Part shown: positions 24,690-25,281 of the stretch, one piece after another
Numbering within the stretch: the first letter of the stretch is position 1
How the letters are laid out: each line of letters begins with the position of its first letter
DNA from: Eledone cirrhosa
Lineage: Eukaryota
Direction of reading: 5' to 3'
NCBI GenBank assembly: GCA_964016885.1
Contig: OZ024745.1
Span: 25,978,001 to 26,042,000, forward strand
DNA length: 64,000 bases
Notes under the pieces: generated by a model
Databases searched by the model: none
What the model saw: the letters and a program-made list of their open reading frames with translations, nothing else
Told to the model about the DNA's origin: nothing
Translations under genes and position numbers: made by a program

Positions 24690-25281
24690 TAAATGAAAGT
24701 TAGAGTTAATAACTCTTACTGAAACCCTGTAATGAATAAGCTCCAAGCACAAATACTGAGCATTATAGTAATAATATATATGTAGTAAGAAACACAGTAA
24801 ACCGTGTGTCTAATATTACGAGGGTTGAAAGACCACATTTGTTTGAAATATTTAACCATGAAGCAGACAGAATGATAAAATAAAATTATATTATACAAAC
24901 CGCCTCAATAACAATTATATCTCTCGGACAGATTAGGGATAATCTGTTTCACCCAGAGTGTGTTTGTAACAGATAATCCAGGGCATCATCAGCGAGAGAA
25001 TCTGATTAAATGCTACAAACACAATAGTACCAACGTTCACACAGAAAGATGAATTTATCACCTCGTGCGCCGCAAGTCAAAAGTGGTGTGAGTGTATTGG
25101 TTAGAAATAACAGTCCAACACACGCAACTTAATAAGCTCACCTCATGAGGGAGCCGAAATATAAATGAAAGTTAGAGTTAATAACTCTTACTGAAACCCT
25201 GTAATGAATAAGCTCCAAGCATAAATACTGAGCATTATAATAATAATATTTACTGTGTTTACTGTGTTTCTTACTACACAC
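24690..25281 (-). mobile_element. (TA)n-flanked non-coding element with ~90-bp direct repeats and an internal intact hammerhead (retrozyme-like)
   Basis: 24690-24778 is repeated at 25162-25250. A 22-bp segment at 24781-24802 is inverted at 25257-25279. No ORF. Confidence 0.7.
24920..24999 (-). ncRNA. Canonical type I hammerhead ribozyme
   Basis: Minus strand reads tctctcg CTGATGA t gccctgga...tctgggt GAAAC agatta tccc taatct GTC cgagaga. Stem I 7 bp, stem III fully paired, GUC triplet. Confidence 0.9.

What the first reader, a model, noticed from the sequence alone, without database searches (positions are those of the whole stretch)
24690..25281. Best candidate active ribozyme: 590-bp non-coding unit with direct repeats and a textbook hammerhead
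Seen: full core, GUC triplet, 7-bp stem I, and a stable self-contained stem III, unlike the palindromic minimal ones. An extra U lies between A9 and stem II. Direct repeats about 472 bp apart define a unit length. Established: an extra residue after A9 is tolerated in some natural hammerheads, and retrozyme monomers are a few hundred nt and circularise. Inference: a partial tandem of a ~470-nt retrozyme-like RNA.
Basis: partly seen in the sequence, partly recalled or inferred. Interest (0 to 1): 0.8.

Follow-up and report, generated by a model that had tools for sequence, protein, structure and literature searches.

The report
Penelope-copied hammerhead retrozyme, decayed copy
This is one slightly decayed copy of a 472-base non-coding repeat with a hammerhead ribozyme motif, present in hundreds of copies in TA microsatellites of this animal genome and likely spread by a Penelope-type retrotransposon enzyme, whose copying marks make it a good test case for how such ribozyme repeats move.

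Summary
A type I hammerhead lies on the minus strand (24999-24920; predicted cut 24927/24926), inside 94-nt direct repeats 472 bp apart.

The unit belongs to a dispersed family (at least 325 exact hammerhead cores; four subfamilies about 12-15% apart) in which core and stems are conserved while the rest drifts. Insertions sit in (TA)n and look like Penelope-element insertions: partial tandems, random 5' truncation, and head-to-head arms with two fixed 3' ends, both at ATAT motifs. An abundant Neptune/Nematis-type Penelope element in the same genome follows the same pattern, but shares no significant sequence.

A few arms end exactly at the ribozyme cut, which hints at cleavage in vivo. Most read through it, so the template is a circle or an uncut multimer; that is not resolved.

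This copy is not the best active candidate. It has a rare C11.1-to-U change, ranks 76 of 84 for predicted access to the active fold, and has one hammerhead, so it cannot release a monomer. No RNA data were available.

Verdict: new member of the animal non-LTR retrozymes (non-autonomous Penelope-like elements).

The parts
24691..25285 (-). Whole insertion: short inverted arm + 0.2 unit + one full unit, between (TA)n tracts
24691..25162 (-). 472-nt monomer (m1 = 25162, m472 = 24691), 36% GC, longest ATG frame on the circle 47 codons
25163..25252 (-). 5'-truncated preceding unit (m383-472), which creates the direct repeat
25253..25285 (+). Inverted arm, a copy of about m361-389 ending at fixed site a and running into (TA)n
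24920..24999 (-). Type I hammerhead: stem I 7 bp, extra U after A9, stem II 4 bp, loop II 26 nt, stem III 7 bp
24926..24927 (-). Predicted self-cleavage site after GUC (m236/m237)
   Evidence: family arm ends enriched here
24951..24951 (-). C11.1-to-U change at a CpG; one of 4 letters rare elsewhere in the family
25011..25022 (-). Upstream strand predicted to pair with loop II (lock in the circle, or pseudoknot); conserved but without covariation
24762..24776 (-). Fixed end a (m387-401, AT-rich): inferred reverse-transcription start; also where a SINE-like repeat inserts in other copies
24687..24691 (-). Fixed end b (m472 plus ATAT shared with the target): inferred second start
24651..24690 (.). 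(TA)n target tract, left
25282..25391 (.). (TA)n target tract, right

Best explanation
This is a 1.2-unit copy of a dispersed, non-coding 472-nt hammerhead repeat family, likely a retrozyme that a Penelope-type reverse transcriptase/GIY-YIG enzyme copies into (TA)n microsatellites. Likely cycle: (1) tandem loci with two or more ribozymes are transcribed (inferred) and self-cleave to monomers that may be ligated to circles (inferred from known retrozymes). (2) The enzyme nicks both strands of a (TA)n tract, and each nicked end anneals to one of two internal ATAT motifs of the RNA, m387-401 and m472 (the ends are shown; priming is inferred). (3) The two cDNAs stop at scattered points and are joined head to head (shown as anatomy). 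The RNA is usually intact at the cut site, so cDNA runs past one unit and leaves partial tandems. The window copy is a probable dead end: one ribozyme, with a weakened stem II.
For: Copy number and spread. Anatomy: of 92 insertions picked only by the m472/(TA)n end, 63 have an inverted arm, and 59 of those end at m387-401. Of 107 segment ends at site a, 79 run into TA repeats and 20 into a SINE-like repeat. Both arms come from one source: within-insertion divergence is below the between-locus median in 56 of 58 arm pairs and 39 of 39 tandem pairs. Ribozyme conserved across subfamilies, core+stem columns changed against the rest: A/B 1 of 50 against 49 of 326 (P 0.007), A/G 0 of 50 against 46 of 392 (P 0.005), A/H 0 of 49 against 45 of 387 (P 0.005). 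The monomer folds as a circle better than shuffles (z -5.8; -3.0 for L163). An abundant element with an RT + GIY-YIG frame also ends in (TA)n, has two ATAT ends 60 nt apart and a hammerhead with one extra residue; cut-to-end distances are 158 and 218 nt against 153-165 and 240 here. Penelope tandem/inverted anatomy, tail and two internal starts: PMC8557442, PMC11167929.
Against: No sequence homology to the candidate helper (23 and 47 of 300 shuffles score as well). No family copy was seen attached to a Penelope frame (the output of 23 was cut). Activity, transcription and circularity are untested; in a 2026 preprint only 1 of 9 predicted retrozyme dimers cleaved in vitro. No two-sided compensatory change among 84 consensus pairs. 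Loop II is as conserved as the stems (1 of 26), so conservation is not confined to catalytic parts. G and H are related, and G loci were partly found through the ribozyme, so the three tests are not independent. The tail here (71-85 nt) is longer than the 30-40 nt described, and the Anolis enzyme starts without target homology.
Confidence: 0.8

Rival explanations
1. Same element and enzyme, but the template is an uncut linear multimer or is extended by template jumps, with no circle. The ribozyme serves another step, such as 5' end processing.
For: About 160 of 182 arms read through the cut site unchanged, which fits uncut RNA equally well. Ribozyme mutants did not affect Anolis Penelope insertion in vitro. 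Autonomous Penelopes make partial tandems without circles. Tandem loci that could give multimers exist.
Against: The ribozyme is conserved across subfamilies. The circle folds well. Insertions longer than one unit recur in subfamilies A, G and H, which a shrinking linear lineage would not easily sustain (inference).
Confidence: 0.4
2. The unit is just a solo pseudo-LTR fragment of an autonomous Penelope element not yet found.
For: The anatomy is that of truncated Penelope insertions, and Xenopus retrozymes match pLTRs.
Against: The junction m472|m1 leads back into the same non-coding unit in 93 exact genomic matches, arrays of up to five full units plus parts exist, and all 100 listed of 325 core matches share this family's loop II.
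Confidence: 0.1
3. A satellite spread at the DNA level, with a fossil ribozyme.
For: The L272 array shows an alternating unit pattern, and units 1 and 2 of L198 differ at 1 of 388 sites, so local DNA duplication does occur.
Against: Dispersed copies with scattered 5' truncation, fixed 3' ends and inverted arms; selective conservation of the ribozyme; arm ends enriched at the cut.
Confidence: 0.05
4. This particular copy is a highly active, host-useful ribozyme.
For: Core intact, stable stem III, only 4 rare letters in 472.
Against: G10.1-U11.1 pair; the predicted lowest-energy fold pairs loop II with the GAAA/stem III strand; rank 76 of 84.
Confidence: 0.1

Closest known systems
Animal non-LTR retrozymes (Cervera & de la Pena 2020, PMC7229834; Li, Clavereau & Pollet 2026, bioRxiv 10.64898/2026.07.22.740005)
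   Same: Non-coding unit under 50% GC with a type I hammerhead, in monomers and short tandems, predicted to self-pair as a circle, co-occurring with Penelope elements.
   Different: 472 nt (170-400 nt in the 2020 paper, within the 51-972 range of the preprint); 7-bp stem III; ribozyme predicted masked in the circle; mostly dispersed, with inverted arms, two fixed ends and (TA)n targeting, none of which I saw described in the parts read; no pLTR homology found.
Penelope-like elements, Neptune/Nematis type, and non-autonomous ones such as MRC1 (PMC8557442); Poseidon of Anolis (PMC11167929)
   Same: Partial tandems, 5' truncation, adjacent inverted arm, a tail between two fixed ends, microsatellite targets, hammerhead upstream of the ends.
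   Different: No coding frame; canonical rather than minimal hammerhead; tail 71-85 nt; ends match the target by ATAT microhomology.
Dolichopoda pDo500 satellite (PMC2837043)
   Same: ~500-nt repeat with a conserved hammerhead.
   Different: pDo500 is a large satellite; this family is dispersed with retrotransposition marks.
Plant LTR retrozymes (PMC4918200, search listing only; described)
   Same: Non-autonomous, ribozyme-bearing, circle-forming.
   Different: Type III ribozyme, LTRs, PBS/PPT and 4-bp target duplications; none seen here.

Membership tests
Type I hammerhead ribozyme | Core CUGANGA / GAAA / UH with stems I-III, stem I open | tested here: met
   0 in 300 shuffles
Type I hammerhead ribozyme | G10.1-C11.1 pair | tested here: not met
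   U in the window copy; C in 85 of 88 other copies, so met for the family
Type I hammerhead ribozyme | Match to an Rfam hammerhead model | tested here: not met
   long loop II and stem III are the likely cause (inference)
Type I hammerhead ribozyme | Self-cleavage | not testable with these tools
   indirect only: arm ends enriched at the cut
Type I hammerhead ribozyme | Loop I-loop II tertiary contact | tested here: inconclusive
   upstream strand/loop II helix conserved without covariation
Animal non-LTR retrozyme | Non-coding unit of a few hundred nt with a type I hammerhead; no LTR, PBS or PPT | tested here: met
Animal non-LTR retrozyme | Tandem loci with two or more intact ribozymes | tested here: met
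   family: L163, L165, L167, L272, L273, L275; not the window copy
Animal non-LTR retrozyme | Ribozyme conserved during spread | tested here: met
Animal non-LTR retrozyme | Expressed as linear and circular monomer RNA | not testable with these tools
   no RNA holder listed
Non-autonomous Penelope-like element | Partial tandem, 5' truncation, adjacent inverted arm, tail between two fixed ends | tested here: met
Non-autonomous Penelope-like element | Autonomous partner in the genome with the same target and end pattern | tested here: met
Non-autonomous Penelope-like element | Sequence homology to a partner's pLTR | tested here: inconclusive
   not significant for the one family tested; other Penelope families (L158, L057) were only looked at

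The most novel reading that the evidence does not exclude
A Neptune-type Penelope enzyme copies a circular ribozyme RNA in trans without sharing sequence with it, priming twice by (TA) microhomology at two internal sites placed at about the same distance from the ribozyme as in its own RNA. The few percent of arms that end at the cut record ribozyme cleavage in the germ line. That would be a direct genomic record of how animal retrozyme circles are integrated.
Probability: 0.3. Interest if true: 0.65.

Novelty: new member of a known kind. Interest (0 to 1): 0.38.

Why it matters
The kind is known. Which enzyme moves animal retrozymes, and whether the template is the circle, is still argued mostly from co-occurrence and pLTR similarity. 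This family gives fixed priming sites, a named target, a candidate helper in the same genome and naturally broken and intact variants, so the question can be tested in the published in vitro Penelope assay. For annotation, the window copy should be treated as a decayed repeat, not as a regulatory ribozyme.

Tried and rejected
Rfam: no hammerhead hit.

Expression: no RNA holder listed. Three runs of unknown kind from one sample cover the unit and show family variants; this says nothing on transcription or copy number.

Second, opposite-strand hammerhead at 25135-25165: 0 of 82 segments have the core; rejected.

Pol III boxes A/B in the monomer: none by a simple pattern.

A CAGAU/AUCUG loop I-loop II pseudoknot: the CAGAU is not kept in subfamilies B and H; rejected.

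'Arrays are at most trimers': wrong. Those patterns missed subfamily H, which has longer arrays. The counts 163 and 325 exclude H.

'Two-ribozyme arrays need the GGGA loop': 7 of 7 matches, but this reflects subfamily membership, and tandems with other loops exist (L021, L067).

L198 (stem III deleted in both units) as proof of a circle: better explained by one deletion plus local duplication.

A SINE-carrying monomer subfamily: junctions differ in length and orientation, so mostly independent insertions; L087 and L148 carry it twice and stay open.

Helper search: one Penelope family examined; no homology.

Earlier scan notes: nothing.

Literature: no paper on this family among the listings; a 2026 octopus repeat annotation has 0 mentions of hammerhead or ribozyme in its main text. 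Repbase/Dfam and the preprint's supplements could not be seen and may hold the family.

Full report
Observation. A motif of this quality occurred once in the window and never in 300 local shuffles. Rfam does not detect it. I number the unit m1-m472 (window 25162 to 24691); the predicted cut follows m236. The insertion reads: (TA)n, a ~30-nt inverted arm, m383-472, m1-472, (TA)n.

The family. The genome is 3.0 Gb; a DNA search gave 1843 candidates, of which 40 were scored, giving 78 matches. Exact patterns gave 163 ribozymes with C11.1 and 10 with U11.1, 325 with a looser core, 98 ends at m472 followed by TA repeats, 93 internal m472|m1 junctions and 852 matches to a 23-nt motif at m356-378, several per insertion; reversed-pattern controls were 0. 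Four subfamilies appeared: A (the window's), B, G and H. H has A as the extra residue in 15 of 15 loci and is missing from the ribozyme counts. Tandems with two or three ribozymes exist, and L272 has five full units, partly grown by local duplication. The host was not given; from recall the neighbouring SINE-like repeat resembles octopus SINEs, which I did not test.

Selection on the ribozyme. Comparing the commonest letter per column, core and stems changed at 1 of 50 columns between A and B (a U-A pair to U-G), 0 of 50 between A and G, and 0 of 49 between A and H, against 49 of 326, 46 of 392 and 45 of 387 elsewhere (P 0.005-0.007). B was fetched by loop II and H by a motif outside the ribozyme; G was partly fetched by the ribozyme itself, and G and H are close kin. 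Loop III and the extra residue vary. Loop II is also conserved. It is predicted to pair with m141-152 in the circle, but no pair among 84 shows a two-sided change.

Insertion anatomy. From the 98 ends I analysed 92 insertions (five adjacent matches and two adjacent matches were each counted once, and L151 was dropped for lack of a mapped sense arm). 63 have an inverted arm joined head to head; 59 of these end at m387-401 and the other 4 at m382 or m406. Among 107 segment ends at that site, 79 run into TA repeats, 20 into a SINE-like repeat and 8 into other DNA. The 5' ends are scattered; 18 of 92 sense arms exceed one unit. Arms and tandem parts of one insertion differ by a median 3.1%, against 6.5-8.5% between loci. 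Partial tandems, an adjacent inverted truncated copy and a tail are described for Penelope-like elements (PMC8557442, passages), and the tail lies between two internal reverse-transcription starts in the Anolis element (PMC11167929, parts 1-2 of 4). I therefore infer two priming sites, here set by ATAT microhomology with the target; in H variants that lost the last hairpin the end still falls on an ATAT run.

Candidate helper. A GIY-YIG frame beside one copy found 55,469 candidates, the 150 scored being 86-100% identical. L235 holds a 633-residue open frame with weak RT and GIY-YIG Pfam matches below cut-off and a CX4CX2C motif before the endonuclease, as described for Neptune/Nematis. This element ends in (TA)n at two sites 60 nt apart, shows inverted arms, and carries a hammerhead with one extra residue; its cut-to-end distances are 158 and 218 nt, against 153-165 and 240 here. 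Sequence similarity is not significant, so the partnership rests on anatomy.

Cleavage in vivo? Of 182 subfamily A arms anchored just downstream of the cut (classified by eye), 19 break within the preceding 30 nt, and 7 of them (6 junctions) do so at m236-238: P 0.006 for a 3-nt window, 0.025 for 4 nt. Four more arms at three loci have a deletion or ambiguous join there, which I did not count. In the overlapping 92-insertion set, 7 stops fell at m235-241 against 2.2 expected, but other 7-nt windows reached a similar excess. This is suggestive only; pausing at stem I is an alternative. About 160 arms read through, so the usual template is a ligated circle or an uncut multimer. Coral, mussel and axolotl retrozymes are circles in vivo (PMC7229834, parts 2-4 of 6); the monomer here folds well as a circle.

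The window copy. It has 4 letters rare in the family, one being C11.1 to U at a CpG. G10.1 and C11.1 are called conserved positions in PMC2837043 (passages); the loss of rate on changing them is recalled, not from a call. The predicted cost of the hammerhead fold is 7.1 kcal/mol against a median of 3.1, rank 76 of 84 scored segments, because loop II pairs with the GAAA/stem III strand. With one ribozyme it cannot release a monomer. An unpaired residue 5' of stem II is known in Penelope and some canonical hammerheads (PMC4209133, part 1 of 4).

Comparison and verdict. A 2026 preprint already proposes that animal retrozymes are non-autonomous Penelope derivatives (parts 1-3 of 5; supplements not seen). 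This family fits that kind. A search for retrozyme + inverted + target-primed returned only the Craig et al. paper, and I did not see the two-ended, (TA)n-targeted anatomy described for retrozymes in what I read. Also consulted as passages: PMC3088659 on pseudoknots, PMC6155905, PMC13282606. Shown: motif, family, conservation, anatomy. Inferred: cleavage, circles, priming, helper. Novelty: new member of a known kind; interest 0.38.

Noticed in passing
m387-401 of many copies, e.g. L040:1737-1921, L087, L093, L006, L148: A ~185-nt SINE-like repeat sits at fixed site a in 20 of 107 segment ends, in both orientations and with varied truncation, some with target duplications; twice within one insertion in L087 and L148.
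   Followed up: partly
window 24936-24939 and family: The stem III loop is inverted between lineages (TCCC against GGGA), a hairpin micro-inversion; other lineages lengthen or delete it.
   Followed up: partly
L235:2721-4619, L241, L205-L234: Very abundant Neptune/Nematis-type Penelope element with a hammerhead in its repeat and two fixed ATAT ends in (TA)n.
   Followed up: yes
window 26008 (-) and 10692 (-); many loci: Other hammerhead families with short palindromic stem III, often in inverted pairs near TA tracts; one with a 4-bp stem III in L090.
   Followed up: no
L158:1-1497 with L025:2428-3477; L057: Further Penelope-like frames of other types beside family copies.
   Followed up: partly
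window 32738-37883 (-): Open frames that look like a non-LTR (L1/Tx1-type) retrotransposon in pieces; 4085-4663 (-) looks like a transposase fragment (names by inspection).
   Followed up: no
window 41100-48400: Long CAC-rich simple repeat followed by a ~4.8-kb short-period minisatellite.
   Followed up: no
G000 C8, C9, C10, C13, C19 near contig starts; C6, C13, C18 near ends: Several subfamily B matches lie within about 45-60 kb of contig ends (C8 at 314 kb), suggesting carriage in a subtelomeric duplication.
   Followed up: no
L198, L199: Copies whose deletion removes stem III and ends at the predicted cut site.
   Followed up: partly
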